Source of the DNA: a virus
Taxonomy: Duplodnaviria > Heunggongvirae > Uroviricota > Caudoviricetes
IMG/VR virus record: IMGVR_UViG_3300020578_005505
Direction: 5' to 3' (one strand)
Length of the DNA: 64,000 nucleotides
The notes beneath the pieces are model-generated. The model was not told where the DNA came from. It saw only the letters and a program-made list of their open reading frames with translations, and searched no databases. Positions 10,793 to 27,958 of this stretch are shown here, in pieces. The translations under genes were made by a program, and so were the position numbers. How positions within the stretch are numbered: the first letter of the stretch is position 1; every line of letters begins with the position of its first letter.

Positions 10793-11092
10793 TTATTTTT
10801 TGTTAGTTAATTTATTTTCTAATCTATCAAAACGTGAATCCATTTGACTGTAAATATCTCTTTCAACATTATCAACATGTCTAGATACGTTTTGAATTTC
10901 AGTATTAATTATTCTGAGAATGTTTTCATTTTCACGAGATAATAACGTTTCTAGATCATTAACTCGTATTTGTACTTTATTTACCTTAACGAATGCGTAA
11001 ACAGCAACTATTGCCGTAGCAATAACCACCACAGACGCTATCCCTAAAATGAATGATAGTGTTTCCATAATTTGTCTCTCCTTATATGTCAA
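10793..11092 (-). CDS. Small membrane/coiled-coil protein
   Basis: N-terminal transmembrane helix followed by a coiled-coil-like segment. Confidence 0.3.
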   Translation of the reverse strand: MTYKERQIMETLSFILGIASVVVIATAIVAVYAFVKVNKVQIRVNDLETLLSRENENILRIINTEIQNVSRHVDNVERDIYSQMDSRFDRLENKLTNKK

Positions 11093-11106
11093 AGAGCAGT
11101 AACTTG

Positions 11107-11204
11107 GAACAGGGGAAGGAATCGAACCTTCACGCCTTGCGGCAGACTTTCGTCTACGTCTAACCTTCGGCGGTCATATGCCCGCTCTTTTTCGCCACCC
11201 TGTT
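11107..11204 (-). tRNA. tRNA-like gene of unusual length (about 98 nt), possibly with a long variable arm; anticodon unresolved
   Basis: Minus strand. 5' AACAGGG pairs with 3' CCCTGTT. Canonical T arm GAAGG-TTCGATT-CCTTC. The interior holds two GNRA-capped hairpins (AGAC-GAAA-GTCT and GCC-GCAA-GGC) and a GCGG/CCGC hairpin around a CATATG palindrome. No standard cloverleaf could be folded by eye. Confidence 0.35.
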
Positions 11205-11206
11205 CG

Positions 11207-11280
11207 TTGACTCTACTGGAATCGAACCAGTCACCTACTGATTATGAGTCAGCCGCTCTCACCAACTGAGCTAAGAGTCA
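11207..11280 (-). tRNA. tRNA-Met (anticodon CAT; could be initiator, elongator or a lysidine-modified Ile)
   Basis: Full cloverleaf on the minus strand: acceptor TGACTCT/AGAGTCA, D stem GCTC/GAGC with 9-nt loop, anticodon stem GCTGA/TCAGT, loop CTCATAA, T arm ACTGG-TTCGATT-CCAGT, discriminator A. CCA not encoded. Confidence 0.8.
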
Positions 11281-11287
11281 GTATAAG

Positions 11288-11360
11288 GTGACTATACTGG
11301 AATCGAACCAGTGGCACGGCCTGATTTAGGGCTTGCTCTAACCTTCTGAGCTAATAGTCA
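11288..11360 (-). tRNA. tRNA with atypical anticodon arm (anticodon ambiguous; possible 8-nt loop CTAAATCA)
   Basis: Acceptor TGACTAT/ATAGTCA, D stem GCTC/GAGC, T arm ACTGG-TTCGATT-CCAGT are all canonical. The anticodon stem AGCCC/GGCCG pairs only 3 of 5, leaving 3 bp with an 8-nt loop, or a mismatched stem around loop TAAATCA. Confidence 0.45.
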
Positions 11361-13098: not shown

Positions 13099-13269
13099 AA
13101 TACTTTATTTAACTATGTATCATTTTTGTTACCTTTTATAGGCCCGGTCTTTAATTTATTTGAAAAATTTCCTGTATATACACCAGTAGGTTGTACTACT
13201 ATAAAGGTGCTTAATGAAAAAGATATAGATGTAAGTAACGTTTTCATACTCTTTTACATCTATAAATAG

Positions 13270-13677
13270 TGGAGGAGACGGGAATCGAACCCGTGTATCC
13301 ATAAGGAACAATAACACCAGCGTATCACATGCTTAGATCTGCAAGCTGATCAGTAGTTGGGGCCACTAGTTTTGGTTAGCGTGCCTTCCACCACCTAATT
13401 TTACTCTAAACTAGGAAACTCACGGCTCGCAATATGCGTCCGGATGCCGTCTCTATAGCGTACGACTCGCTGCTGTTCTGTTGCGAGGCTATCAGCTGCC
13501 CCAAGCTTACTAAGCCGCGTATGCGTACTCTTCAGCACCTACAAATGCCACTAGGTCATCATAGGTCATTGTTGACATTTCGTCATTTATTGTTTGAAAA
13601 TTTGTTTAAAGGCGACATATCCAAACGCCTGCATGTAGTATTACCTTCACATTACGGAGCAATACCTGGACTCCCCC
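13270..13677 (-). ncRNA. ssrA: tmRNA (SsrA); predicted tag GAEEYAYAA followed by two stop codons
   Basis: Minus strand. 5' GGGGGAG pairs with 3' CTCCTCC including a G3-U70 wobble, plus discriminator A73, which are the alanine identity elements. T arm ACGGG-TTCGATT-CCCGT. Internal reading frame GGT GCT GAA GAG TAC GCA TAC GCG GCT TAG TAA encodes GAEEYAYAA, the same pattern as Bacteroidetes tags such as GENNYALAA. Confidence 0.8.
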
Positions 13678-16258: not shown

Positions 16259-17881
16259 TTAAATTTCTTCATCTTTTTTCTTATCGTCTTTTTTTTCGAA
16301 AATTACTGATTCTGTTGTTAGTATAGTACCTGCTACGGAGGCAGCATTTTCAAGAGCAGTACGTGTGACTTTAGTCGGATCAAGAAGACCTGCTTCAGTT
16401 GCCTCTACTACTTTTTGATTTTTAGCATCATAAGTGTGAGCTGATTCTTGACTTTCATAATTCTTAATTTCACTTAAAATACGGTAGTGATCTTCAATAC
16501 CACAGTTTGTTAAAATTACTTTGAAAGGAGCATGACAAGCTCTTTTAACTATATTCCAACCTTTTTGCTCATCGCTTGATGTTAAAGGTAATTTAATATT
16601 TTCGAATGCTGTAATTAATGCAAGTCCTCCACCAGGAACTACGCCTTCTACTAGAGCTGCTTTAGTAGCAAACAAAGCATCTTCTACCCTATCTTTCTTT
16701 TCTTTAATCTCAATATCGGAATTTCCTCCTACTGAAATAATAGCTACTCCGCCAACTAATTTACCAAGCCTCTCCTGAAGCTTTTCTTTCTCATAAAATG
16801 ATGTAGCTTTTTCAATTTGATCTTTTATCTCTTCAGCTCTTAAGCTTATAGCATCTATATTACCTTTGCCATCAACTATAGTAGTGGTTTCTTTAGATAC
16901 CGTAACAGTTCTTGCGACTCCGAAAAATTCCGTTAACTGTAACGGGGTTATTTTCTCTAGTTTATGTCCTTTATTTTTAGAAATTACCTGTCCCCCGGTT
17001 AAAATAGCTAGATCTTCTAAGATTAAAGTACGGCGTTCCCCAAAGTCAGGAGCTTTTACTCCTGCTACATAAACTATACCGCGCATTTTATTTACTATCA
17101 AAGTAGCAAGCGCTTCGTCTTCTATATCTTCAGCTACTATTAGTAAAGCTTTTTGATCGGAGTTGGCTTTAGTTAACGAATTTAAAATATCAGCAGCTTT
17201 AGTGATACGGCCATCGTAAATAAGAATATAAGGTTCATTCAAGACTGCATGCATTGTAGTATTATTAGTAACGAAGTATGGGGATTTGTATCCTCTATCA
17301 AACTGCATACCTTCTACTATCTCCAAAGCAGTTTCACCTGTTTTAGATTCTTCAATAGTAACAATACCTTCTCTTCCTACTTTTTCAATAGCAGCTGATA
17401 TTAGATTGCCTATCTCAATATCGTTATTTGCAGAGATAGCTGCTACTTGACGAATTTGATCTTGAGAGGAAATATCTTTCGATATTTTTTTTAAGTTATC
17501 GATAACTTCTTTTACGTAAACCTCAATAGCTTTCTTAACCTCTACTGGGTTAGATCCTTGATTAATAAGCTTTAATCCTTCTTCAACCATTGTTGTAGCA
17601 AGAAGAGTAGAGGTAGTAGTTCCGTCTCCTGCTTCATTAGCAGACTTTATGGATACCTGCTTTACTAGCTGGGCACCAAGGTCTTCAACCTGGTCTTCAA
17701 GTTCGTGAAAGGAACGAGCTACTGTAACTCCGTCTTTAGTTACTTTTACTTCGCCAGATTTTTCTTTAATTAACACTGTACGGCCTCCTGGCCCTAAAGT
17801 GGAAGTTACCGATTCATTTAATTTTTTAATACCCGCAAGTAACTTATTTTTTAATTCAATTCCAAATACTGTTGTTGTCAT
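16259..17881 (-). CDS. groEL: Chaperonin GroEL (Cpn60)
   Basis: Full-length GroEL homology, including a GGM-type C-terminal tail variant. The likely true start is [13 protein letters not shown] at 17881, one nucleotide after the GroES stop. The track ORF extends to 17926 through an in-frame upstream ATG. Confidence 0.9.
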
Positions 17882-17882
17882 T

Positions 17883-18254
17883 TTATGATACTTTACTGTT
17901 GTTGTATTTTTCAAAATCAGGATCAACTACTGTCTCTTTAAGAACTGATAAAACACTTAATTGTCCGCTTAATTTTGCGTAGACGTCTTGCTCTTTGCAA
18001 ATAAAATATTCTTCGCTTTCTACAGTGATTCTTAGAGAACCTAGTTTAGGGATAAGAACTTTGTCTCCTAATTCAAGATTTGAAAGTACTAGTTTATCAG
18101 AATTAAAATTATACGTAGCAGAGACAGCAATCACTTCTCCCATCTCAGGCCTCTCTTTTCCTAAATCTGGAATAACAATATTACCATACATTTGTTCCTC
18201 TTCTTCTATAGGTCTTAAAATTAAATACCCATTTAACGGTTGTAACTTCGACAT
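17883..18254 (-). CDS. groES: Co-chaperonin GroES (Cpn10)
   Basis: GroES-like N-terminus (LQPLNGYLILRPIEEEE...GNIVIPD...GEVIAV), directly upstream of groEL. Longer than usual at 123 aa. Confidence 0.65.
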   Translation of the reverse strand: MSKLQPLNGYLILRPIEEEEQMYGNIVIPDLGKERPEMGEVIAVSATYNFNSDKLVLSNLELGDKVLIPKLGSLRITVESEEYFICKEQDVYAKLSGQLSVLSVLKETVVDPDFEKYNNSKVS

Positions 18255-18274
18255 ACTTTTTATTTTAATTTAAT

Positions 18275-18463
18275 TTAAGAAATAATCTCCAAATCTTCAA
18301 CTGTTACTAAAAAATAAAGTAATCCTTCTTTCTTTAATATTGTATCGGCCTGAAGATACTCTTTCCAGACTTCTATTACGGGAAAATCATCTTCCTTAAT
18401 AATTTTTTTAATTAAAAAGAGTTTGCTATTAAATGGAATAAACTGCTTAGTAAGTGTAAACAT
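18275..18463 (-). CDS. Small hypothetical protein
   Basis: 62 aa ORF. Confidence 0.25.
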   Translation of the reverse strand: MFTLTKQFIPFNSKLFLIKKIIKEDDFPVIEVWKEYLQADTILKKEGLLYFLVTVEDLEIIS

Positions 18464-18488
18464 AACTGGTACTTAGTAGGCTACTTAT

Positions 18489-18926
18489 TTAATTCTCAAG
18501 AAAAGCTTTAGGTGTAGTAATAGAAATTTTTCGAGTAGCTTTACCTACAGCAATTGGTATATTTAAAGTCAAAAGACCTTTATCGAGAGATGCTTCAAGG
18601 TTACTTAAGTCGAACTTAGTTGAAATTTTCCAAGTAAGATCAAAACTTGATCTCTTAATACCCTTATAAATTGGATGATTTTCTTCCTGTTGTGCAGGTT
18701 TATCGTAACAAATTCTAAGAGAATCATTCTCAACAGAAATAAGAATATCCTCGACACTAAGGCCTACTGCGGCTATTTCAAAACGAATACCGCTTTTAGT
18801 TTCGAAAATATCAACAGGATGGGTTACTCTCTGCGTAATTGCAGAAAAATGTGCTTGTGCTTCTTTTAGGTCTTTCCATAGCAAGTCAAACGGATCGAGC
18901 TCGAACGCACGAAAAAGTGCTGTCAT
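18489..18926 (-). CDS. Small heat-shock protein (Hsp20/alpha-crystallin family)
   Basis: Alpha-crystallin domain pattern (DIFETKSGIRFEIAAVGLSVEDILISVENDSLRI...GLLTLNIP). Confidence 0.6.
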   Translation of the reverse strand: MTALFRAFELDPFDLLWKDLKEAQAHFSAITQRVTHPVDIFETKSGIRFEIAAVGLSVEDILISVENDSLRICYDKPAQQEENHPIYKGIKRSSFDLTWKISTKFDLSNLEASLDKGLLTLNIPIAVGKATRKISITTPKAFLEN

Positions 18927-19034: not shown

Positions 19035-21344
19035 CTAGTGTCCATCACGAAAATTAACCGAAACTTCCGGATCGGCAATAAGTTGCACACCTTCTAGCTT
19101 AGTTGTATTCTCCATACAGTCTTGTACTATTTCGCATGCACGTTTTACGTCTTCTTCTTTAACTTGGCATACTAGTTGGTCATGAATTTGACAAATTACC
19201 TGCCCTCTAATGCCTTCTCCCTTGAATCTCCTATTGATTTGTAGGGCTGCACGGTTTACTATGCTTGCTGAATAACTCTGAATTTGAAAGTTTAAACAGT
19301 TGTTAAGTGCATTTTTATAATCTCTATACAAACCAGTTGTGTACTCTACTCCATACTCTCTCTCCAAATCTTTTCTAAACCTCCAGTCTTCAATAAGCCT
19401 ATCCCCTAGGGCAGAATAGATTTCCTTAGCCTGTGGCAAATGCCTGATTCGACCTACCTTATTCTTAATATAGCCGTTCTCTTTAACAAACTTTCTAGAA
19501 TTCTCTCTCCACTTTCTTAATTCAGGAAATCCATCTAAGTAACCTTCTACAAGTCTTTCTCCTTCTTTCCTATCTACTCCTAACGACATTGCTAGGGCAT
19601 ATCCGGACATTCCGTACGGTACACCTAACGCATAACCTTTTGCAGTCTGTCTTTTGACGGGATCTATTTTTTTAAGAAAATTAGGAGCTTTGGTATGGGC
19701 ACTTACTCCTTCAAGCTTTTCGGTTTTTATAGCAATATGAGAATAAAAATCTAAATCATTATTAAAAATATCTTTCAGACCTTGATCACCTGCTACTGTA
19801 GCAAATACCCGAGGTTCCAGAGATGCATAATCAGTATCAAGTATCTTAGTGCCTTCGTCAGCAATAAAGAAAGCTCTTACAAGGTTTGTATATCCAATAA
19901 TTAAATCTTCCTCTTGACCTGGCTCTAGTGGCTTAGGCAACTGCTGCATATCTGATCCGTATCTTCCTGATACAGTACCGTTCTGCTTGAAATAAGGATA
20001 AAATCTACCATCCTCAGCTGAATCAAAAAATCGATCTACGTATGCAGTTTTAATTTTAGTAAGTTTATTGTATAAGCGTAAATGATTTGCCCATAAATAT
20101 TTGTCCTTTATGGATTGGATCATATCTTCGTCAAATTGAGCCTTTCCTTTAGTAGTTGTTGAAATCGATTTCTCACCTAATACATCAAAAGCTATCTTAC
20201 CCATTTGATCTTTAGACTGTATATTAAAGAACTGGCCGTCATTATCCTCTTTCCATAAAGATAAACTAACTTTAACAATTTGATCTTTAGTGAGATTTTC
20301 TATATCACCAGTCATCAAGTAATCCTTTATAGTAGAAGGAGATAGAGCTAATATAGCCGCTTTATTTATAGTAAATTTACCTGTCTTATTTGATTTAGGT
20401 AGATCGATATTATTTTGCTCGAGTAGACGTTGGGCAAATATACCTTTGCTTTTTGGAGGATACGCTTCTACCGCTTGATCAATAATCCATTTGCGTACTT
20501 TAGGCTCTTTTAATAACTCTTTGAGTACTGCTGTTGCCTGCACTTCGAGGTCTTTAGTTATTCTATCTTTAGTTTCTTTAATAAGAGAGATATCTAATCT
20601 AATACCGTGTTTCTCCATCGGTATAGTAACCTCTCTATAAACAGGCATCACCTCGTCTTCAAAGAAAAACTTTTCAAGACCTTCCTCTACTAATATTTTG
20701 TAAAAGTGATGATAGATACGTAGCGTCAAGTCGGTATCGGCTGCTGCATACTTTGATAGTACCACTAAATCAGCTTTGTATATCTCATAATTCTCCTTAG
20801 AAGTTGAACCGCCATTTGCTTTTATACTCTCTTTAAGAGCTATTTGTTCTTCATTAGCTTCAGTTTCTACATCTAAACCGATTTCCTTTTGAACCATTAT
20901 AGCAATACTTTTTAATCCAAAAGGATTACCGTATCCAAATGCTCCTTCTTCTTTTACTGTATGCACAAGTAGAGAAGTATCAGCATGCAAATAATTTAAC
21001 AAGTTAATTCCGTAAAAATTCTCTATATAACGTAAGTCGAAAGAAGCGTTATGACAAATAACTTTCTTCCCTATTAATTGCTTAATAACATATTTAGCTA
21101 AAACGTTAGCGTTTTTTCCTTCAATAACTACTTCTTCGAGTCTATCAGTATTCCATACCATTATAGGCATATAGTAACCTTTACCTACTTCACCAGAAAT
21201 AGAAAAGCCGATAATTCGACCCTTTCTAGGATTCAAACTATCGGTTTCAGTATCTAACGCTACGTACTCGCTAGTTGCTATATGCTGAACTAACTCTTTT
21301 AACGTTTCTTTATTATTTACTATAACATAACTTTTTTGCTGCAT
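19035..21344 (-). CDS. Family A DNA polymerase with 3'-5' proofreading exonuclease domain (no 5'-3' exonuclease domain)
   Basis: Exo I motif ALDTETDSL. Pol motif B RQTAKGYALGVPYGMSGYALA, motif C CQIHDQLV. 769 aa. Confidence 0.85.
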   Translation of the reverse strand: MQQKSYVIVNNKETLKELVQHIATSEYVALDTETDSLNPRKGRIIGFSISGEVGKGYYMPIMVWNTDRLEEVVIEGKNANVLAKYVIKQLIGKKVICHNASFDLRYIENFYGINLLNYLHADTSLLVHTVKEEGAFGYGNPFGLKSIAIMVQKEIGLDVETEANEEQIALKESIKANGGSTSKENYEIYKADLVVLSKYAAADTDLTLRIYHHFYKILVEEGLEKFFFEDEVMPVYREVTIPMEKHGIRLDISLIKETKDRITKDLEVQATAVLKELLKEPKVRKWIIDQAVEAYPPKSKGIFAQRLLEQNNIDLPKSNKTGKFTINKAAILALSPSTIKDYLMTGDIENLTKDQIVKVSLSLWKEDNDGQFFNIQSKDQMGKIAFDVLGEKSISTTTKGKAQFDEDMIQSIKDKYLWANHLRLYNKLTKIKTAYVDRFFDSAEDGRFYPYFKQNGTVSGRYGSDMQQLPKPLEPGQEEDLIIGYTNLVRAFFIADEGTKILDTDYASLEPRVFATVAGDQGLKDIFNNDLDFYSHIAIKTEKLEGVSAHTKAPNFLKKIDPVKRQTAKGYALGVPYGMSGYALAMSLGVDRKEGERLVEGYLDGFPELRKWRENSRKFVKENGYIKNKVGRIRHLPQAKEIYSALGDRLIEDWRFRKDLEREYGVEYTTGLYRDYKNALNNCLNFQIQSYSASIVNRAALQINRRFKGEGIRGQVICQIHDQLVCQVKEEDVKRACEIVQDCMENTTKLEGVQLIADPEVSVNFRDGH

Positions 21345-22363
21345 TAAAAACCTTCTTGATTTTCTATCAATTTTTTTGCTTGATCGTAAGACATAGTTAA
21401 CTCTTTTTTTCTACCCCTAGACTCTCTAGCGATTTCGAGCTCTTGACATAAAGTAGTAAACGCTTTTAGGTCTTTCTGAAAGCAGTATAAGCCTGCAGTC
21501 TGTACAAGAGATTGAAATTTGCTGAAAGATAGAGTAGGGTCACCAGCTAACTTCTTACCGTTTTGATAGTACAATTTAAGTAGTTTTAAGTTAAGCTCCA
21601 ACTGCTTGAATTTGGGAGTTTGTAGGAGTTTCTTAGTTTCGTCGTAACTCCCTATAGTATAGTATGCGTTAAAACCTACGCCTACTAAGATTAATAATTC
21701 CAAAAATACAGTTATAAAGAAAAATGCTGTTGAATTCTCGCTACTTACGTCCAGCTTGCTAGCCGTTTTTTCTTTAGACTTATCCTCTATTTCGTTTAAT
21801 TTCGTCTCTTTACTTTTTTGCAGGGAAGCAACTATTGAATCCCTATATTGTCTATCTACCCTTGACTTAGAAGGCTGGGTTCTGTAATAATTAATCTCTT
21901 TATCGTAATATTTCGCAATAGAATCGGCTTTCAATGAAATACTAGTTTCAAGAGTGGTTTGAATAGTCTCTGAATCATCAATTAATCTATGAGCTCCTTT
22001 TATTGATAGGTAGAAGCTTCCTGCCATTAATCCCATAAAAATAACTGATCCTACAGCTATAGAATAAGTAAATTTTTTTATTTGCAAAATGCTAATTGAC
22101 AATTGTTCTAAGACAAACCTTTTAGTTAGTTCATAGCCAGTAAGGAAAAGTGCTACGAAAATAGCAAAAAAAGTATCCTGAAAAGGAAATAAAGGAGGGA
22201 TACTATCAGTAATTGACTTTACAAAAAAGTATCCAAAGTAAATAAGGAATATATTACCAAGAAAAGAAAAGTAGTAGAGTATTCTATCTAAAGTAAAATA
22301 GTTTTGCTCAAGCTTATGCACCTCAAGCTTTACTCTTAGCTTATTATATTTATCTATCTTCAT
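21344..22363 (-). CDS. Membrane protein of unknown function
   Basis: Several transmembrane helices in the N-terminal half. Its start overlaps the bS21 stop (ATGA). Confidence 0.35.
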   Translation of the reverse strand: MKIDKYNKLRVKLEVHKLEQNYFTLDRILYYFSFLGNIFLIYFGYFFVKSITDSIPPLFPFQDTFFAIFVALFLTGYELTKRFVLEQLSISILQIKKFTYSIAVGSVIFMGLMAGSFYLSIKGAHRLIDDSETIQTTLETSISLKADSIAKYYDKEINYYRTQPSKSRVDRQYRDSIVASLQKSKETKLNEIEDKSKEKTASKLDVSSENSTAFFFITVFLELLILVGVGFNAYYTIGSYDETKKLLQTPKFKQLELNLKLLKLYYQNGKKLAGDPTLSFSKFQSLVQTAGLYCFQKDLKAFTTLCQELEIARESRGRKKELTMSYDQAKKLIENQEGF

Positions 22364-22539
22364 TTTATTTTTTTAGACTCTACGTATCGAGCCTTTAAAA
22401 TTTCAGTTCTACGTTTAACTGAAGGTTTAATAAAGGTCTTTCTATCTCTTAATTCTTTTATTATTCCTATTTTATTATGTTTATTTTTATATTGCTTCAA
22501 AGCATGTTCAACTGAGCCATTTATATTTACTATTATCAT
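22360..22539 (-). CDS. rpsU: Ribosomal protein bS21 homolog; 59 aa, so below the ORF-track cutoff
   Basis: Manual translation MIIVNINGSVEHALKQYKNKHNKIGIIKELRDRKTFIKPSVKRRTEILKARYVESKKIK. Matches the bS21 pattern ALK(R)YK(R)K...G...ELR.R..F.KPS.KRR...K. Confidence 0.65.
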   Translation of the reverse strand: MIIVNINGSVEHALKQYKNKHNKIGIIKELRDRKTFIKPSVKRRTEILKARYVESKKIK

Positions 22540-22542
22540 ATT

Positions 22543-22866
22543 TTATACTTCTTCTAATATTCCGTCCCTTACTAAATTTAATATATTATTACGAATTTTA
22601 CTTGTTTTAGCTACGTGTATAGTTGTACCTTGCTTAAATAGAGTACTATCGTGCTTAAAATCTTTTAAGACTTTAAATTCTCTGACGGAGTGATTATATG
22701 GAAACAATTCGTTAAGTAGATCCTTACGTCTACTACAACCACAATCTTTAGCCCCCGCTAATTTAGCTAAACCTTCAGCTACTTTATCTATACCTAGAAA
22801 ATTAGTAACCTTAGCAATGGTGTCGCCAAGACCTTCAGATTCTTTATTTGGATCAAAATTTTCCAT
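22543..22866 (-). CDS. Hypothetical protein
   Basis: 107 aa ORF. Confidence 0.3.
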   Translation of the reverse strand: MENFDPNKESEGLGDTIAKVTNFLGIDKVAEGLAKLAGAKDCGCSRRKDLLNELFPYNHSVREFKVLKDFKHDSTLFKQGTTIHVAKTSKIRNNILNLVRDGILEEV

Positions 22867-23023
22867 ATCAAGGGTTACTGCTGTCTAAATTTACTAATAA
22901 TCCGTTCGTAACCACTGCAGTAGAGATTTAAAATTTATCTGAACGCTACTAGTTTGATTCTTTAATGAATAGACCTGTTTCTTAAAGTGTTTAAAAATGT
23001 TTTTACAAATATAAATATATACT

Positions 23024-23560
23024 TTACAGGGAAGATCGCTGCTTATCGTTTTGCCACTGACCGTTATATTCTTCAGCTGGAGTGCATTCGTGAAAATATA
23101 TTTGAGCTACACGAGCGTCTTTTTCGATAAAAATCGTTTGAGTTACTAACATAATTGTTCCTATATTTTCAGTCTCAAAACCAGGATCAAATACGGGCGA
23201 ATTAATTAAAGTACCGTTACGCCATAATGATGATCGTTGTTTAATAAAAGCTACACGATTATCTGGAATTCTACAGCCTTCCCAAAATGCAATATCATAT
23301 GTACCTGGATGCAAAAGCCATCCTTGAACTTCTTCAAGACGAATAGTTTCAACTGGAGTATAAGTAGTTAATTCAGTTTTATTCTTTAAAACTTTACCTA
23401 TCTTGAATTTTCTATATACAAGTTTTTCGTCGATTCCGTTTGGATCACCTACTCTATTTACCTCTTTAAGGGTTATATCATAACCAACTTGAGCTACTTT
23501 ACCTTTAGTATTATCTAACTTAAGTAATCCTTCTTCGAGGATTTGTTGTGCATTTAACAT
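23024..23560 (-). CDS. dCTP deaminase / dUTPase-superfamily protein
   Basis: VGYDITL, DPGFETENIGTIMLV and RVAQIYF resemble the Dcd motifs GYDLRL, DPGF.G and RIAQL.F. Confidence 0.55.
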   Translation of the reverse strand: MLNAQQILEEGLLKLDNTKGKVAQVGYDITLKEVNRVGDPNGIDEKLVYRKFKIGKVLKNKTELTTYTPVETIRLEEVQGWLLHPGTYDIAFWEGCRIPDNRVAFIKQRSSLWRNGTLINSPVFDPGFETENIGTIMLVTQTIFIEKDARVAQIYFHECTPAEEYNGQWQNDKQRSSL

Positions 23561-23569
23561 TTTTGTAAA

Positions 23570-24280
23570 TTATTTCCTAGGGTAACCTTTAATAAACTCA
23601 TAAAATTCAGCTCGTGCAGCATCTTCTACTAAAAAGCATCCTGATAGCTTAGAGGTCTTCATATTAGCACCTTGATGCTTTACACCTCTACAGCTTACAC
23701 AGTTATGAGTTGCTTCAATCATTACTGCAACACCAATATTATCTTCGCAAATTTTATCTACAGCATTATGAATAGCTACAGTTAATTGTTCTTGAATTGA
23801 ACCTCTTCTACTAAAATGCTCTACAATTCGGTTAAGTTTACTTAGACCTACTACCCTACTTTTAAGGGTCGGCACGTAAGCGATATGACACAGGCCGTTA
23901 ATAGTCTGATGATGGTGACTACACATACTCGTAATAGGGATACCTCCTTCAAATACTACTCCGTCATAACCGTCAGCCGGAAAGCTAGTCACAGAATCTA
24001 GCTGCTCATATCTACCTTTCCATAAGTCGTTTACGTAGGCCTTAGCCACTCTCATAGGAGTATTCGAGCTATTAGGGTCGTTTTCCCAGTCAACTCCTAA
24101 AGCAGTTAGAAAATTGCCGTAATGTAAAGAAGCAGCTTCAATAATAAGCTTCTTTTCACCTTCAGTTAAACAATTTCTTCCTTCTTTAATTGCGTCTCGC
24201 AAAAAAGTACTAATACCGTTAGCATGGCCAGCTTGTGCAAGCTCTAGTTTTTCAATTTTAATATGTTTATCTCTACTCAT
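23570..24280 (-). CDS. folE: GTP cyclohydrolase I (FolE)
   Basis: CSHHHQTINGLCHIAYVP...VGLSKLNRIVEHFSRRGSIQEQLT, the conserved FolE core with the Cys/His zinc ligands. Confidence 0.8.
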   Translation of the reverse strand: MSRDKHIKIEKLELAQAGHANGISTFLRDAIKEGRNCLTEGEKKLIIEAASLHYGNFLTALGVDWENDPNSSNTPMRVAKAYVNDLWKGRYEQLDSVTSFPADGYDGVVFEGGIPITSMCSHHHQTINGLCHIAYVPTLKSRVVGLSKLNRIVEHFSRRGSIQEQLTVAIHNAVDKICEDNIGVAVMIEATHNCVSCRGVKHQGANMKTSKLSGCFLVEDAARAEFYEFIKGYPRK

Positions 24281-24283
24281 AAT

Positions 24284-24793
24284 TCAAAGATATAAGGATA
24301 TCGATTTTAAACGTTCTTCTACTGTACCTTTTAATATAACTACTTTTTCTTTAGGAATATAATTTATCATAAATTCTCTTATAACTTGATCTATTTTTAA
24401 TTGCAATTCTTGACTTAAGCGATCAGGATCGGCTTCAAAATCAAACTCAACAGGTATATAAAAAAAACGTTCTACTTGATCTTTAGTTTCTTCAAATAGA
24501 GTAATAAGGTTTTCAATATCAAGATTAGGGGCTAAAATTTGGGAGTAAATAATACAATCAACAATACTTCGAGTACTAATTACATTTTTATGTGTTAAGT
24601 AATTTTGATAAGCCCAAGCAGATAGTTCATTTATTACGTATTGCTTTTCATAACCTGATAATTCCAGCTGCTTGCCTATCTTAATAACAGGTCTTGAGAA
24701 ACCATCAGTAACATAATACCCGGGATAATTAGTAGCAACCTCTTTAAGTAAGGTAGTTTTTCCGGTCCCGTGAGATCCAAGTAATATTTTCAT
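24284..24793 (-). CDS. P-loop NTPase (kinase/ATPase-like) of unknown role
   Basis: Walker A GSHGTGKTTLL at the N-terminus. 169 aa. Embedded in the deazaguanine gene run. Confidence 0.4.
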   Translation of the reverse strand: MKILLGSHGTGKTTLLKEVATNYPGYYVTDGFSRPVIKIGKQLELSGYEKQYVINELSAWAYQNYLTHKNVISTRSIVDCIIYSQILAPNLDIENLITLFEETKDQVERFFYIPVEFDFEADPDRLSQELQLKIDQVIREFMINYIPKEKVVILKGTVEERLKSISLYL

Positions 24794-24821
24794 TTAAATA
24801 TTTTATATAATATATGAATAT

Positions 24822-25388
24822 TTACTGAAAGGTCCAAGTATTCTTAAAAAATTCTACCCAAGTAAGAAGAGACGTAGTCCGTAAAATAGAATATGCTTCG
24901 TCTACAGTTTTTGCGGTATTTTCGATACTAGCTGTTATTATAACTTCCCCTGAATCTAATTCCGGAATTACTTCGTGAATTACTGAGCCGCAAACGGGGT
25001 ACTTTTCATGATTTTTAACAATATCTTCTTGTTTATTAAAGCCTTTTAATTCAGGATAGCGAGTAATGAGTGCAGGATGACCGTTATAAATTTTGCCTTT
25101 GTATTCACTAAAAAACCCAGTAGGTAATATTCTCAAAAATCCATGTAAAGTAATTAGCTTTTTTTCAAGTAGTTCAGGAAAAAGATAATCTTTTAATACA
25201 GGCTTAAACGGTATTGTCTTTATTGTTACACTATTTTCTCCAAAGAATCTCAGGTTATCATCAGATATCTTACTTAATCTATTAGTAACAAGGAGACTAG
25301 GGAGAAACCCGGTTTCTTTAGCTATAGCAATAATCTCGGATCCGGTCTGAGATATTAGTATTCCCCAGTTTTCTTGAACTTTTATCAT
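24822..25388 (-). CDS. PurN/Fmt-like formyltransferase (candidate preQ1-DNA formyltransferase, DpdN-like)
   Basis: NGHPALI resembles the NxHPSLLP motif. GSVIHEVIPELDSGEVIIT carries the catalytic His and Asp region of formyltransferases. Overlaps queF by ATGA. Confidence 0.55.
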   Translation of the reverse strand: MIKVQENWGILISQTGSEIIAIAKETGFLPSLLVTNRLSKISDDNLRFFGENSVTIKTIPFKPVLKDYLFPELLEKKLITLHGFLRILPTGFFSEYKGKIYNGHPALITRYPELKGFNKQEDIVKNHEKYPVCGSVIHEVIPELDSGEVIITASIENTAKTVDEAYSILRTTSLLTWVEFFKNTWTFQ

Positions 25389-26302
25389 TGCCCCATTGCT
25401 TTTGTACTAAACATTCTAACGTTATTTAAAACGCTATTAAGAAGTCTTTCGTTTGAAACACGTACTGGACAGATATCTAAAGAACCTCTACGGGCATATA
25501 ATAACATTACGCTACAGTCTTCTACGTTAGGGTTCGACATAATTTCAGTAAATAACTTCTCGGCACAGAATTCATGAAATTCGTTTACCTCGCGTAAGGA
25601 AATAACAAGCTTTAGCAGTTCTAATTTATTTACAACACCTTGCTTAGTTTTAATAGCAAAGTAAGCAGCTCCAGTATCTTTTTGCTTTGTATGTCGACAT
25701 CTAGATCTTAGAATATTAGTAAAGTACATATACATATTAGGACCACTACCTTCTTTAGTTACTACATTATACTTTCCTTGTCCTTTATAATCAGCAATTT
25801 CCATAGACTCTAATTCTTGGGAGTTTATTTCAGTAAACAAGTCACTATAACCACGGCCTGGATCTTGATTCAATCTAGTATCGTCTCCTGATCTAAAGAA
25901 GCCTACTCTCACTTCAGCTCCAATTGCTTTACTGATATCTTTTTTTACCTGTTTTTCGTAATTGTCGATAGCTTCTTCTAAAGTATCTCCCATCTTACAC
26001 ATATCAAAGGTATTCAAATAGAGTTTAAAAGATTTAGATTCTACCATGAATTCTGAATTTGCAGGGCAGATAACTTTTAAGGTACCTGCTACTGGAAGTC
26101 CATTGCTAAGTAGAAAAGTAGCTTCGTGACAATGCCAAGTATCAAAGCCTACAAATTCATCTCCTTTAATACCCCAATCTTGACGTGCAAGAATACGTGG
26201 CATAGGATTTAACTGTGAAGGATCAAATGTATCTGTATAAACAGCATAGGAATTAGCCGAACCAAGGGTTTTAGAGGCTACATCGGTCATATTACTTAAC
26301 AT
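25385..26302 (-). CDS. queF: NADPH-dependent 7-cyano-7-deazaguanine reductase (QueF, preQ0 to preQ1)
   Basis: VESKSFKLYLNTF, the QueF signature E(S/L)K(S/A)hK(L/Y)(Y/F/W). Confidence 0.7.
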   Translation of the reverse strand: MLSNMTDVASKTLGSANSYAVYTDTFDPSQLNPMPRILARQDWGIKGDEFVGFDTWHCHEATFLLSNGLPVAGTLKVICPANSEFMVESKSFKLYLNTFDMCKMGDTLEEAIDNYEKQVKKDISKAIGAEVRVGFFRSGDDTRLNQDPGRGYSDLFTEINSQELESMEIADYKGQGKYNVVTKEGSGPNMYMYFTNILRSRCRHTKQKDTGAAYFAIKTKQGVVNKLELLKLVISLREVNEFHEFCAEKLFTEIMSNPNVEDCSVMLLYARRGSLDICPVRVSNERLLNSVLNNVRMFSTKAMGQ

Positions 26303-27071
26303 AGGAGCGGAAGGTTTTTACGTTTTCGAAAATTAAATTTATTTGTTCTTCTTTTAGCTTAATATCTAAATTATCAGCTAATTTATCTTTTGGTTTAGAG
26401 GATGTAAGTCCGTTAGGTCCTAATCTATTACCGGACCAGCCGTTGACGATTGGTGAGCTAGTATCAAGAGAATAAATGTAGCGTTGCAAATGACTTTGAT
26501 TATACCTATAGAGTTGAAACTCTACAGGGTTTTGACATCCTAAAAGATGAAACCTATAGGAACCTCCAAAAAACTTATACCTACTGGCATACCACCAATT
26601 CAAAAACCTAAACCGTACAGTTACATGATCAGAATCAGGTACTAGATCGAAAGGCAAGGCAATAATATCAATATCTTTTTCAACATAAAAATCGATACAA
26701 TCAGCAATTTGCTCAAAAGTATCTCCTTGACATACCCCGATATACTTTAAATTATCGGATTTATATTTACCTAAGTACTCTACTGCATTTGCAATAGTTT
26801 GCCTGTAGTCGTTAACCTTATCAGGTAATACAAGGTGGCTAGGTCTAAATTCTTCTCCTAGTTCGTACAACTCTTCCCCGGATATTGATTGACCTAATTC
26901 AAATGCAGAATTATCGAGAATAGAATAAGAGGCTTCTTTAAGCTTCTTTTTATAAAACTCAGTATAACCTCTATCGTTATTTAGTAAATGCCCTAGTACA
27001 TAAGGGTAGTCACTGATTAGGTCATGATAAGGAAATAACTGTTTAGGTATTTCGTGACTTATTTTTGTCAT
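26292..27071 (-). CDS. Putative DpdA-like (tRNA-guanine transglycosylase-fold) DNA 7-deazaguanine transglycosylase
   Basis: 259 aa between queC and queF, with Asp-containing LDNSAFE and LDTSSP segments reminiscent of the TGT fold. Context-driven assignment. Confidence 0.4.
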   Translation of the reverse strand: MTKISHEIPKQLFPYHDLISDYPYVLGHLLNNDRGYTEFYKKKLKEASYSILDNSAFELGQSISGEELYELGEEFRPSHLVLPDKVNDYRQTIANAVEYLGKYKSDNLKYIGVCQGDTFEQIADCIDFYVEKDIDIIALPFDLVPDSDHVTVRFRFLNWWYASRYKFFGGSYRFHLLGCQNPVEFQLYRYNQSHLQRYIYSLDTSSPIVNGWSGNRLGPNGLTSSKPKDKLADNLDIKLKEEQINLIFENVKTFRSYVK

Positions 27072-27958
27072 ATGTTTACTTTTTTATGTTCTAATAATAC
27101 TTGCTCAACATGTGCTCTAGCTACTTCCCAACTTACAGGCCCGTTTTCATCAGCATATTCTACAGGATCGGGACGATCTAGTTTAATAAATGCTTCAATA
27201 CGTTCTACTGATGCAGCTGATTTATAATCTGAATACCATTTAAATGCGTAGGTCTCTGGACGGTAATAATGCTTAATTGGTTTATATGAAGTATTAGTAC
27301 GCTTGTATACTTCGTTAAAGTCTAAGCCTAATTCTTCACAGCAGTCTTCACCATCTACCAGGATATCGTACTTATTCATTTCAAGATAGGGAGTGTAGAC
27401 GCTGACTAACTCTGAATTCCAATTGCCGATTCTAAATGCTTCCATATCAGCGTCTCTAAATTCTTGACGGCAATCCGGATAGATGTCATGATCGCCCGCA
27501 TGCACACCTAATGCAATCATAACATTCTGTCCTATAGTGCAATCATCAGTTATTGGCCTGGTAGCAATAGATAAAGCTACTGCCTGTATAATTGAACTAA
27601 AGATCTTATTCCGGTTAGGAACTACTGTCTCTTTCATATTCTCTTGTTGATAGTGGCCCTCCGGTACATCTTGTCCGCCTTCAACTAATGCTGAATTAAG
27701 TAGTTCTTGTAATCCTTTTAATTTAATAGTTTGATGTGTTACAAAATAAGGATAATCTACTGTTTTAGATTCTTCGTCTACAACACAATATGAATTGATG
27801 TACTTTACTAATGATTGAGCACGCTCTAATTCAACACGATGTTTTTGTCCATAATCAAAAGATAGAGCTGTTACTTCGTAACCGTTAGCTAATAAATGAA
27901 GAAGTAATGACGAAGAATCCATCCCGCCACTAAGTGAAAGCACAACTTGTTTTTTCAT
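27068..27958 (-). CDS. queC: 7-cyano-7-deazaguanine synthase (QueC-like PP-loop ATPase)
   Basis: PP-loop VLSLSGGMDSSSLL (SGGxDS) at the N-terminus. Longer C-terminal region than the bacterial enzyme. Confidence 0.65.
   Translation of the reverse strand: MKKQVVLSLSGGMDSSSLLLHLLANGYEVTALSFDYGQKHRVELERAQSLVKYINSYCVVDEESKTVDYPYFVTHQTIKLKGLQELLNSALVEGGQDVPEGHYQQENMKETVVPNRNKIFSSIIQAVALSIATRPITDDCTIGQNVMIALGVHAGDHDIYPDCRQEFRDADMEAFRIGNWNSELVSVYTPYLEMNKYDILVDGEDCCEELGLDFNEVYKRTNTSYKPIKHYYRPETYAFKWYSDYKSAASVERIEAFIKLDRPDPVEYADENGPVSWEVARAHVEQVLLEHKKVNI

What the first reader, a model, noticed from the sequence alone, without database searches (positions are those of the whole stretch)
22360..22539. 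Unannotated ribosomal protein bS21 gene (59 aa) between the membrane protein and the upstream ORF
The ORF falls below the track's size cutoff, but its translation matches the bS21 consensus (ALKQYKNKHNKIGIIKELRDRKTFIKPSVKRR). It is tightly packed: 3 nt after the upstream stop, with its own stop overlapping the next ATG. Phage-borne bS21 is thought to bias translation initiation toward phage mRNAs.
Basis: seen in the sequence. Interest (0 to 1): 0.65.

Follow-up and report, generated by a model that had tools for sequence, protein, structure and literature searches.

The report
Phage-encoded ribosomal protein bS21 gene
A 59-codon gene in this bacteriophage genome really does encode a copy of the small ribosomal protein bS21, a well-documented kind of phage "ribosome hijacking" gene, so the call is correct but the phenomenon is already known.

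Summary
Both the observation and the identification hold. Window 22360-22539 (minus strand) is a 59-aa ORF. It starts 3 nt after the upstream stop and ends in an ATGA overlap with the next gene. It passes the curated cut-offs of Pfam Ribosomal_S21 (48.5 bits against 27) and TIGR00030 (39.4 against 28.95). It is under strong purifying selection (dN/dS about 0.10).

The window is a contractile-tailed phage. Its genes lack Shine-Dalgarno sequences, and the nearest bacterial bS21 proteins are all from Bacteroidota (44-58% identity).

The protein keeps the Bacteroidia signature tyrosine (Y52, equivalent to F. johnsoniae Tyr54), which holds the anti-SD tail of 16S rRNA. It has lost three arginines on the N-terminal helix, has a shorter and more basic tail, and lacks the strong SD that autoregulates Flavobacteriaceae rpsU.

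In relatives at 60% identity or above, the gene usually lies co-directionally in a FolE/dCTP-deaminase/DNA-polymerase/chaperone module. It does not lie antisense in the capsid block as in the published freshwater clades.

Phage bS21 is already described (Mizuno 2019; Chen 2022), and 264 IMG/VR contigs carry relatives. This is a new member of a known kind, of low to moderate interest. Ribosome incorporation and any bias toward phage mRNAs are inferred, not shown.

The parts
22360..22539 (-). bS21 (rpsU-like) coding sequence, 59 aa plus TGA stop
   Evidence: ORF listing and sequence. PF01165 48.5 bits against GA 27. TIGR00030 39.4 bits against 28.95. phrog_21469 'ribosomal protein S21'. 7JIL chain z E 3e-11. 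dN/dS about 0.10. AF2 model has two helices, pLDDT 84.7.
22360..22363 (-). ATGA stop/start overlap between bS21 and the downstream 339-aa gene (translational coupling)
   Evidence: Read directly from the sequence. The same overlap (…ATGAAGATAGATAA) is kept in relatives L062 and L056.
22540..22542 (-). 3-nt spacer between the upstream stop (TAA, 22545-22543) and the bS21 ATG. There is no Shine-Dalgarno sequence in the 30 nt upstream.
   Evidence: The upstream sequence is AGGGACGGAATATTAGAAGAAGTATAAAAT-ATG.
22543..22866 (-). Upstream 107-aa ORF, a small 'GLGDTIAK…DCGC…RRK…LN…FPY' protein of unknown function that recurs near bS21
   Evidence: phrog_32048, unknown function. A homologue lies immediately before bS21 or within about 1.5 kb in 12 of 80 IMG/VR loci.
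21344..22363 (-). Downstream 339-aa predicted membrane protein, coupled to bS21. Its stop also overlaps the DNA polymerase start at 21344.
   Evidence: Hydrophobic segments at residues 101-121 and 209-237. No Pfam or PHROG family. Conserved after bS21 in L001-L004, L056, L057 and L062.
19035..21344 (-). Family A DNA polymerase with 3'-5' exonuclease domain, last gene of the tightly packed 107aa-bS21-339aa-PolA string
   Evidence: PF00476 and PF01612. No terminator-like site lies in any gap between the four genes; the two minus-strand hits in this span fall inside coding sequence (22833-22807, 21224-21203) and the total is near chance (5 found, 2.8 expected).
22867..23023 (-). 157-nt non-coding gap upstream of the gene string. 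It holds a TATATTTG motif (23013-23006) matching the Bacteroidota -7 promoter consensus TAnnTTTG. This is a candidate promoter only.
   Evidence: The motif is not enriched in the window (86 found, 81 expected), so this is weak inference.
23024..24280 (-). dCTP-deaminase-like gene (23024-23560) and GTP cyclohydrolase I gene (23570-24280), the conserved syntenic partners of this bS21 lineage
   Evidence: PF22769 and PF01227. Both are found on the same strand within 5 kb of bS21: DCD in 15 and FolE in 17 of the 80 IMG/VR loci, 16 of those 18 loci having bS21 at 60% identity or above (23 loci); only 2 of the 57 loci below 60% carry one. Also.

Best explanation
The ORF is a functional, phage-encoded homologue of ribosomal protein bS21, carried by a contractile-tailed phage that most likely infects a member of Bacteroidota. 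The most likely mechanism has four parts.

1. The protein is made with the replication and nucleotide-metabolism genes, as part of a tightly packed, co-directional 107aa-bS21-membrane protein-DNA polymerase string.

2. It binds the platform and neck of host 30S subunits in place of, or in addition to, host bS21. bS21 is among the last proteins added during 30S assembly (PMC7797042), and phage-borne ribosomal proteins tend to be readily exchangeable ones (PMC6375957).

3. It keeps the KPS motif, the C-terminal helix and the Bacteroidia-specific tyrosine (Y52, equivalent to Tyr54) and the adjacent hydrophobic residue (V53, equivalent to Ile55). It should therefore keep the anti-Shine-Dalgarno tail of 16S rRNA sequestered. 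That is the ribosome state which initiates best on SD-less mRNAs, and essentially all genes of this phage are SD-less.

4. Its own mRNA has no SD, so its synthesis does not depend on the bS21-free ribosome subpopulation that drives host rpsU autoregulation. The phage can keep ribosomes replete with bS21 even when host gene expression is shut down.

Shown here: identity, purifying selection, phage context, residue conservation, and absence of SD sequences. Inferred: timing of expression, ribosome incorporation, and effect on translation.
For: Family membership rests.

Residue mapping onto F. johnsoniae bS21 comes together with PMC7797042 (Tyr54 stacks on A1534, Ile55 makes a contact). The tyrosine is invariant in 86/86 close metagenomic relatives and 23/23 IMG/VR relatives.

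Y54A or loss of bS21 raises translation of SD-led mRNA, and loss of bS21 lowers initiation on SD-less mRNAs (PMC9976891). Loss of bS21 releases the ASD (PMC13000457).

Purifying selection: window against L062 gives dS 0.51 and dN 0.051. Other pairs give pN/pS 0.06-0.17 with synonymous sites saturated.

Evidence for a Bacteroidota host:
- All 51 genome hits are Bacteroidota or Chlorobiota MAGs and isolates at 42-75% identity over the best segment; full-length matches are 42-56%.
- Only 9 of 78 upstream regions carry any 4-mer SD core, against 4.8 expected by shuffling. Upstream regions are A-rich at -10 to -13.

No SD lies upstream of the phage gene or of five diverged relatives, whereas 22 of 40 bacterial rpsU loci (Flavobacteriaceae and relatives) carry GAGGAGG-type SDs.

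A phage bS21 (pelagiphage HTVC008M) enters E. coli ribosomes (PMC6375957).
Against: No expression, proteomic or structural data exist for this protein. Co-transcription with the polymerase rests only on spacing and the absence of a terminator-like site.

The only in vitro test of a phage bS21 gave ribosomes with about 5% activity in a heterologous E. coli system (PMC6375957). Incorporation therefore need not be beneficial in itself.

The C-terminal tail is 3 residues shorter and more basic than in Bacteroidota genomes: net +6 against a mean of +3.7. A less basic C-terminal domain is a Bacteroidetes hallmark (PMC7797042). Three conserved arginines of the N-terminal helix are replaced. The protein is therefore not a simple copy of the host protein, and a pure 'supply' role does not explain these fixed changes.

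The Foldseek comparison with solved structures was not significant.
Confidence: 0.6

Rival explanations
1. Specialised-ribosome model. The phage bS21 replaces host bS21, and its altered N-terminal helix, which lines the mRNA exit and ASD region, changes mRNA selectivity so that phage transcripts are initiated preferentially over host transcripts. It overlaps with the best explanation on incorporation. It differs in claiming discrimination between mRNAs rather than maintenance of replete ribosomes.
For: Fixed, lineage-wide substitutions sit exactly on the N-terminal helix: Fj R14, R18, R21, F23, D24 and T26 become Q/H, Q/V, N/Q, H, N and I/L. The anchoring C-terminal helix and the tyrosine are kept. 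Chen et al. report the same positions (Arg21, Phe23, Thr28) as the significantly divergent ones in other Bacteroidetes phage bS21 proteins (PMC9723584). bS21 paralogues change translation of gene subsets in Francisella (PMC9578407).
Against: I found no feature that distinguishes phage from host translation-initiation regions. Phage upstream regions look like ordinary SD-less, A-rich Bacteroidia sites. No experiment has shown selectivity for any phage bS21. The substitutions could equally tune binding or exchange kinetics, or evade a host factor.
Confidence: 0.27
2. Host shut-off or extraribosomal role. The protein either poisons host ribosomes or blocks host bS21-dependent regulation, or it acts off the ribosome as a small basic RNA-binding protein.
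For: Ribosomes carrying pelagiphage bS21 had about 5% activity in vitro (PMC6375957). bS21 has been reported as a component of a non-ribosomal RNP, the OLE complex (PMC12054373, listed). The protein is very basic, with a C-terminal domain of net +6.
Against: A phage depends on host ribosomes, so a general poison is unlikely to be kept at dN/dS about 0.1 in a module with polymerase and chaperones. Every ribosome-contacting hallmark tested (KPS motif, Tyr54, Ile55) is retained. The low activity in E. coli is explained by heterologous mismatch, according to the authors themselves.
Confidence: 0.08
3. The ORF is a recently captured, functionless passenger copy of host rpsU. Alternatively, the window is bacterial DNA and this is simply the cell's own rpsU.
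For: Mizuno et al. infer multiple transfers of bS21 genes between hosts and viruses (PMC6375957). Several relatives carry NCBI records, and one distant hit is named as a Chitinophagales MAG protein.
Against: The closest bacterial proteins are only 44-58% identical. In contrast, 87 metagenomic relatives at 59-95% identity share phage-specific substitutions and phage contexts. Purifying selection is strong. The window carries tail sheath, tail tube and baseplate genes, with virtually all genes on one strand. 264 IMG/VR viral contigs carry relatives.
Confidence: 0.03

Closest known systems
Phage-encoded bS21 of freshwater Bacteroidetes-infecting myoviruses, clades a-e (Chen et al. 2022, ISME Commun, PMC9723584)
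   Same: Both are phage bS21 proteins whose nearest bacterial relatives are Bacteroidota, and both retain the aromatic residue at Tyr54. The divergent positions are the same ones on the N-terminal helix (R21, F23, T28). The genomes have similar GC content: about 33-35% here, 31-34% there. Both carry chaperones, many glycosyltransferase or sugar genes, and a contractile tail.
   Different: In those clades bS21 lies on the reverse strand inside the TerL/portal/protease/MCP block, and it was interpreted as a late gene. Here it is co-directional and translationally coupled within a FolE/DCD/DNA-polymerase/Hsp20/GroES-EL module, about 36 kb from the tail sheath gene. The sequence signature is distinct: KQYKNKHNKIG, a 2-residue shorter N-terminal loop, and a 59-aa length ending in a basic ESKKIK tail. 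IMG/VR relatives below 60% identity, which include contigs of 334-465 kb, show other signatures and lack this synteny.
bS21 of Flavobacterium johnsoniae and other Bacteroidia (Jha et al. 2020, PMC7797042; McNutt et al. 2023, PMC9976891)
   Same: This is the best solved-structure match (7JIL chain z, E 3e-11). The KPS motif, Tyr54 and Ile55 equivalents are retained, along with the two-helix architecture.
   Different: Identity to Bacteroidota genome copies is only 44-58%. R14, R18 and R21 are replaced by neutral residues and F23 by His. The tail is shorter and more basic. There is no strong SD upstream, so the SD-dependent autoregulation described for Flavobacteriia rpsU cannot apply.
Pelagibacter phage HTVC008M bS21 and metagenomic viral bS21 (Mizuno et al. 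2019, PMC6375957)
   Same: The concept is the same: an aquatic myovirus carries bS21, the commonest virus-encoded ribosomal protein, and the gene is under purifying selection. The average pN/pS there was 0.10, and it is about 0.10-0.17 here.
   Different: The host phylum differs. HTVC008M infects an Alphaproteobacterium that uses different initiation signals, and its protein is 67 aa. Ribosome incorporation was shown for that protein in E. coli, not for this one.
bS21 genes of huge phages (Al-Shayeb et al. 2020; GenBank LR7565xx records)
   Same: These are the best hits in the annotated phage collection: 41-53% identity over 93-95% of the protein. Those genomes also carry tRNAs, tmRNA and other translation genes (from my own knowledge of that paper).
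   Different: They are distant in sequence. There is no nucleotide similarity between the window and any deposited phage record.

Membership tests
Ribosomal protein bS21 (Pfam PF01165 / TIGR00030 S21p) | Score above the curated family threshold | tested here: met
   PF01165 scores 48.5 bits against GA 27, covering profile positions 3-52 of 55. TIGR00030 scores 39.4 bits against 28.95, covering positions 3-57 of 58.
Ribosomal protein bS21 (Pfam PF01165 / TIGR00030 S21p) | Small, single-domain basic protein (about 55-71 aa) made of two alpha-helices joined at the conserved KPS/T motif | tested here: met
   The protein is 59 aa. K38-P39-S40 is conserved. The AF2 model has helices 10-34 and 41-57 with mean pLDDT 84.7. 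Foldseek against the PDB was not significant on its own (top hit 8cai_U, a 30S entry, E 0.81).
Ribosomal protein bS21 (Pfam PF01165 / TIGR00030 S21p) | Physical component of the 30S subunit | not testable with these tools
   This needs ribosome proteomics or cryo-EM from infected cells. The only precedent is HTVC008M bS21 in E. coli ribosomes (PMC6375957).
Bacteroidia-type, ASD-sequestering bS21 | Signature Tyr54 (stacks on A1534) and Ile55 contact | tested here: met
   Y52 and V53 align with Y54 and I55 of 7JIL chain z. The tyrosine is invariant in all 109 close relatives. The role of these residues is taken from PMC7797042 and PMC9976891.
Bacteroidia-type, ASD-sequestering bS21 | C-terminal domain markedly less basic than in other phyla | tested here: inconclusive
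   The window's C-terminal domain has net charge +6, and the phage family mean is +5.7. The mean in 27 Bacteroidota genome copies is +3.7, range 0-8. The phage value is more basic than the typical host value but within its range. pI was not computed on the published scale.
Bacteroidia-type, ASD-sequestering bS21 | Strong SD upstream of rpsU, giving autoregulation through bS21-free ribosomes (a Flavobacteriia feature) | tested here: not met
   No SD core lies in the 30 nt upstream of the window gene or of relatives L056, L058, L060, L062 and L063. 22 of 40 bacterial loci have GAGGAGG-type SDs.
Virus-encoded bS21 (Mizuno 2019 / Chen 2022 class) | Encoded on a bona fide phage genome | tested here: met
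   The window carries tail sheath, tail tube, baseplate hub, DnaB, RNR, SSB, UvsX-like recombinase and PolA. Relatives occur on 264 IMG/VR contigs.
Virus-encoded bS21 (Mizuno 2019 / Chen 2022 class) | Purifying selection after transfer | tested here: met
   dN/dS is 0.10 (window against L062). pN/pS is 0.06-0.17 in five other pairs.
Chen et al. 2022 clades a-e specifically | bS21 on the reverse strand inside the conserved TerL / portal / prohead protease / MCP block | tested here: not met
   The gene is on the same strand as all its neighbours, which are DCD, FolE, a membrane protein and PolA. No terminase, portal or capsid gene was identified among the genes scanned (nearest structural hit about 33 kb away); several small neighbours were not scanned.

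The most novel reading that the evidence does not exclude
This bS21 sub-lineage has a KQYKNKHNKIG N-helix lacking three arginines, a short basic tail and no SD, and it is embedded in the replication and chaperone module. It may be an early- or middle-expressed exchange variant. On this reading it displaces host bS21, keeps ribosomes 'SD-blind', and so defeats the host's bS21-depletion and autoregulation response, while also altering the mRNA-exit surface to favour phage leaders. That would be a phage-built specialised ribosome acting from the start of replication rather than only late in infection.
Probability: 0.2. Interest if true: 0.6.

Novelty: new member of a known kind. Interest (0 to 1): 0.25.

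Why it matters
Phage bS21 is the commonest virus-encoded ribosomal protein, yet its function has never been shown in a native host. Recent F. johnsoniae work (Tyr54, ASD sequestration, bS21-free ribosomes) gives the Bacteroidota system a precise and testable molecular framework.

This gene adds a well-populated sub-lineage: 87 close metagenomic relatives with conserved synteny. It combines a retained ASD-clamping tyrosine with a recharged N-terminal helix and no autoregulatory SD, and it sits in a replication module rather than a capsid module.

That makes it a useful natural variant for testing whether phage bS21 maintains ribosomes or re-specifies them, and for annotation pipelines that drop ORFs under 60 aa. 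It does not change current understanding.

Tried and rejected
- **Nucleotide search.** Megablast of 7 kb around the gene against 50,697 phage records found nothing. The phage itself is not deposited, so no annotated relative could be used.

- **Structure search.** Foldseek of the AF2 model against the PDB gave no significant match: top hits 8cai_U and 8a22_Bt, both chains of ribosome entries, E 0.8-1.9. An isolated extended two-helix protein is a poor structural query. Sequence evidence carries the identification.

- **Sigma-70 promoter scan.** It found 24 sites against 25.3 expected, and terminator-like sites were barely above chance; none falls in a gap between the 107-aa ORF and PolA. This is no evidence for a dedicated promoter.

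- **Bacteroidota -7 motif TAnnTTTG.** It is not enriched in the window (86 against 81). The copy in the 157-nt gap upstream of the gene string is therefore only a candidate.

- **SD-led phage gene.** I tested whether the one strongly SD-led phage gene (ATG at 11068, TAAGGAGAG) is a meaningful partner of bS21, as a target of bS21-free ribosomes. 6-mer SDs occur in 2 upstream regions against 0.63 expected (P = 0.13), so I rejected it as not distinguishable from chance.

- **53-aa 'MQPKES…' membrane peptide.** It precedes bS21 in more distant relatives. I looked for it as an obligate partner, but it is absent from the window.

- **339-aa membrane protein.** I considered it as an obligate partner. 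It follows bS21 only in the closer relatives, and DCD takes that position in others. I rejected it as a universal partner.

- **Mimic of the F. johnsoniae bS21ΔC mutant.** That mutant frees the ASD. I rejected this reading because ΔC removes codons 43-64, including Tyr54, whereas the phage protein lacks only the last 3 residues.
Full report
**Observation**

Window 22360-22539 holds an ORF on the minus strand of 59 codons plus a TGA stop. It translates to MIIVNINGSVEHALKQYKNKHNKIGIIKELRDRKTFIKPSVKRRTEILKARYVESKKIK.

The packing is as described. The upstream 107-aa ORF (22543-22866) stops with TAA at 22545-22543. Three bases follow, then the ATG at 22539-22537. The TGA overlaps the ATG of the downstream 339-aa ORF as ATGA at 22363-22360. 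That ORF in turn overlaps the start of a family A DNA polymerase at 21344. At 59 aa the gene sits just under a 60-aa ORF cut-off.

**Identity**

The protein exceeds the curated thresholds of two independent family models:
- Pfam Ribosomal_S21: 48.5 bits against 27, E 6.9e-13, nearly full-length.
- NCBIfam TIGR00030: 39.4 bits against 28.95.
- It also hits the PHROG family annotated as ribosomal protein S21.

Among solved structures the best match is bS21 of the Flavobacterium johnsoniae 70S ribosome (7JIL chain z, E 3e-11). Next come another bS21 chain (9i5v, source organism not given) and then bS21 chains from other ribosome entries.

An AlphaFold model built from 34 relatives has mean pLDDT 84.7 and two helices, at residues 10-34 and 41-57. 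This matches the two-helix description of bS21 in PMC9723584. A Foldseek search of that model against the PDB was not significant, with top hits that are chains of ribosome entries at E about 1. The identification therefore rests on sequence.

**The gene is real and constrained**

An identical protein is on record in 39 blocks of the assembly collection, always in the same neighbourhood. Against a 90%-identical relative (L062), dS is 0.51 and dN is 0.051, a ratio of 0.10. Against more distant relatives synonymous sites are saturated (pS 0.77-0.95) while pN stays at 0.06-0.13.

**The replicon is a phage**

Nearly all ORFs are on the minus strand, and GC content is 31-39%. The window encodes:
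- tail sheath, tail tube and baseplate hub;
- DnaB helicase, class II-like ribonucleotide reductase, SSB, a UvsX-like recombinase, an endonuclease V/exonuclease fusion and DNA polymerase A;
- Hsp20, GroES and GroEL;
- FolE, QueC and QueF-like 7-deazaguanine genes;
- many glycosyltransferases.

It also carries a tRNA-Met and a tmRNA. No deposited phage shares nucleotide similarity.

**Likely host**

All 51 hits in 185,579 species genomes are Bacteroidota, plus one Chlorobiota MAG. They include Owenweeksia, Cryomorphaceae, Flavobacteriaceae, Chitinophagales and Saprospiraceae, at 42-56% identity for full-length matches.

The phage's own initiation regions fit that host range. Only 9 of 78 upstream regions contain any 4-mer SD core, against 4.8 expected by shuffling. 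G is depleted upstream, and A reaches 58-70% at positions -10, -11 and -13 (48% at -12). This is the SD-less, A-rich pattern described for Bacteroidia (PMC7797042, PMC13000457).

**Comparison with host bS21**

Mapping onto F. johnsoniae numbering gives K38-P39-S40 = K40-P41-S42, Y52 = Tyr54 and V53 = Ile55. In the 7JIL structure Tyr54 stacks on A1534 and redirects the 3' tail of 16S rRNA, with the anti-SD, into a pocket formed by bS21, bS18 and bS6. Ile55 adds van der Waals contacts (PMC7797042). Y54A or loss of bS21 increases translation of SD-led mRNA. Ribosomes lacking bS21 initiate less well on SD-less mRNAs (PMC9976891). Loss of bS21 releases the ASD (PMC13000457).

The tyrosine is invariant in 86/86 close metagenomic relatives and 23/23 close IMG/VR relatives. 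So the ASD-clamping half of the protein is conserved.

The N-terminal helix, by contrast, carries fixed lineage-specific replacements:

| F. johnsoniae residue | Replacement in this lineage |
|---|---|
| R14 | Q/H |
| R18 | Q/V |
| R21 | N/Q |
| F23 | H |
| D24 | N |
| T26 | I/L |

The N-terminal loop is two residues shorter. The C-terminal tail is three residues shorter and basic (ESKKIK), whereas hosts have an acidic or neutral LRDAEEI-type tail. The C-terminal domain has net charge +6, against a host mean of +3.7.

R21, F23 and T28 are among the positions Chen et al. found significantly divergent between phage and Bacteroidetes bS21.

Finally, 22 of 40 bacterial rpsU loci (Flavobacteriaceae and relatives) carry the strong GAGGAGG-type SD used for autoregulation. 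Neither the window gene nor five diverged phage relatives has any SD.

**Distribution and context**

The protein search returned 89 proteins. Of these, 87 form a tight 58-67-aa family at 59-95% identity, many already named 'small subunit ribosomal protein S21' by JGI. 264 IMG/VR contigs encode a relative.

In relatives whose contigs I inspected, the gene lies co-directionally among FolE, a dCTP-deaminase-like gene, a DNA polymerase, Hsp20, GroES and GroEL. The polymerase is PolA in the closer relatives and PolB in the more distant ones.

Across 80 IMG/VR loci, FolE or DCD lies within 5 kb on the same strand in 16 of the 23 loci with bS21 at 60% identity or above, and in only 2 of the 57 loci below that. 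The immediate neighbours vary. They include the 339-aa membrane protein, a 53-aa 'MQPKES' membrane peptide, a ferredoxin, or a small GLGD…DCGC protein like the window's 107-aa ORF. I therefore do not propose an obligate partner.

This context differs from the five published freshwater clades. There bS21 is antisense within the terminase/portal/protease/capsid block and was linked to late expression (PMC9723584). The same paper does note Hsp20 (n = 127) and DNA-processing genes near bS21 in other published phages.

**Mechanism**

Shown here:
- a constrained, full-length bS21 homologue on a phage;
- retention of the residues that in Bacteroidia clamp the ASD;
- SD-less phage genes;
- no SD on the gene itself;
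- tight co-directional packing with a replication gene.

Inferred:
- the protein is produced with the replication and nucleotide-metabolism module;
- it enters host 30S subunits, and bS21 is added late in 30S assembly (PMC7797042), while phage-borne ribosomal proteins tend to be exchangeable ones (PMC6375957);
- it keeps the ASD sequestered, so ribosomes stay in the state that initiates best on SD-less mRNAs, which includes the phage's own;
- its synthesis is independent of the host's SD-based feedback.

My confidence in the identity is about 0.97. My confidence in this incorporation-and-maintenance model is about 0.6.

The main rival is the specialised-ribosome idea, not exclusive with the above and rated about 0.27. 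In it the recharged N-terminal helix changes mRNA choice in favour of phage transcripts. The fixed substitutions argue for something beyond simple supply. However, I found no feature separating phage leaders from ordinary Bacteroidia leaders, and no experiment has shown selectivity.

A shut-off or extraribosomal role (about 0.08) draws on the 5% activity of E. coli ribosomes carrying pelagiphage bS21 (PMC6375957). It fits poorly with retention of every ribosome-contact hallmark tested. A functionless passenger gene or a bacterial origin (about 0.03) is contradicted by selection, by the phage-specific signature and by the context.

**Novelty and verdict**

Virus-encoded bS21 is established:
- Mizuno et al. 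2019: the commonest viral ribosomal protein, under purifying selection, and incorporated into E. coli ribosomes.
- Al-Shayeb et al. 2020: huge phages, which include the best hits in the annotated phage collection.
- Chen et al. 2022: Bacteroidetes-infecting freshwater myoviruses, with conservation of Tyr54.

This gene is a new member of that kind. It belongs to a sub-lineage with its own sequence signature and a replication-module context.

Its interest score is too high. I score 0.25.

Noticed in passing
window 13267-13677 (-): The phage encodes a tmRNA gene. ARAGORN reads the tag peptide as AEEYAYAA**, and Rfam RF00023 scores 56.2 bits against a gathering score of 47. With bS21, tRNAs and chaperones it forms a sizeable translation and proteostasis toolkit.
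   Followed up: partly
window 11206-11360 (-): tRNA-Met (CAT) at 11206-11280 is supported by both ARAGORN and Rfam. Next to it, ARAGORN calls a 'tRNA-???' at 11287-11360 with an 8-nt anticodon loop and a 4-base anticodon (aaat). Rfam did not report it. It folds as a cloverleaf with only a 3-bp anticodon stem. It could be a frameshift-suppressor-like tRNA, a degenerate tRNA or a false call.
   Followed up: partly
window 11102-11206 (-): A 105-nt stretch directly downstream of tRNA-Met has a tRNA-like acceptor stem, a GGUUCGAUUCC T-arm and a 3' CCA, but an oversized and irregular middle. Its folding energy is -36.3 kcal/mol (z = -2.65). Neither ARAGORN nor Rfam calls it.
   Followed up: partly
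window 10793-11092 (-): This is the only gene in the window with a strong Shine-Dalgarno sequence (TAAGGAGAG, 6 nt before the ATG at 11068). It encodes a 91-aa protein with an N-terminal hydrophobic segment and a weak DUF4446 hit. In Flavobacteriia, strong SDs mark mRNAs favoured by bS21-free ribosomes. Here, however, the count of 6-mer SDs is not above chance (2 against 0.63 expected, P = 0.13).
   Followed up: partly
window 23024-27958 (-): A run of genes points to a 7-deazaguanine (preQ0/preQ1-type) pathway, probably for DNA modification. It includes GTP cyclohydrolase I, an AAA_28 protein, a formyltransferase-like protein, a two-domain QueF-like protein, an unassigned 259-aa protein and QueC, with a dCTP-deaminase-like gene alongside. 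More distant relatives also carry PTPS (QueD-like) here.
   Followed up: no
window 16259-18926 (-): A phage chaperone module (Hsp20, a 62-aa ORF, GroES, GroEL) lies directly downstream of the DNA polymerase. It is conserved in relatives.
   Followed up: no
L056 vs L058/L059 (relatives of the window): At the same syntenic position, between bS21/DCD and Hsp20, closer relatives and the window carry a family A DNA polymerase. More distant relatives carry a family B polymerase instead. This looks like a replicative polymerase swap within one phage lineage.
   Followed up: no
window 22543-22866 (-) and L066, L072-L075, L079, L081-L084, L118: A small protein with the motif GLGDTIAK…(K/E)DCGC…RR…LN…(F/V)PY (55-107 aa, phrog_32048, unknown function) sits beside or near bS21 in 12 of 80 viral loci. 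In three loci checked (L079, L081, L083) its stop overlaps the bS21 start.
   Followed up: partly
window 46280-50509 (-), 50815-52803 (-), 53038-55410 (-), 33586-35925 (-): Four large ORFs (1409, 662, 790 and 779 aa) have no PHROG family at E <= 1e-5. The first three lie just downstream of the tail/baseplate genes and may be novel tail or baseplate components.
   Followed up: no
window 40440-41837 (-): A 465-aa ORF (GTG start) appears to fuse an endonuclease V / pyrimidine-dimer glycosylase domain (residues 1-120) to an exonuclease domain (residues 127-416). The longest-ORF start may instead be merging two genes.
   Followed up: no
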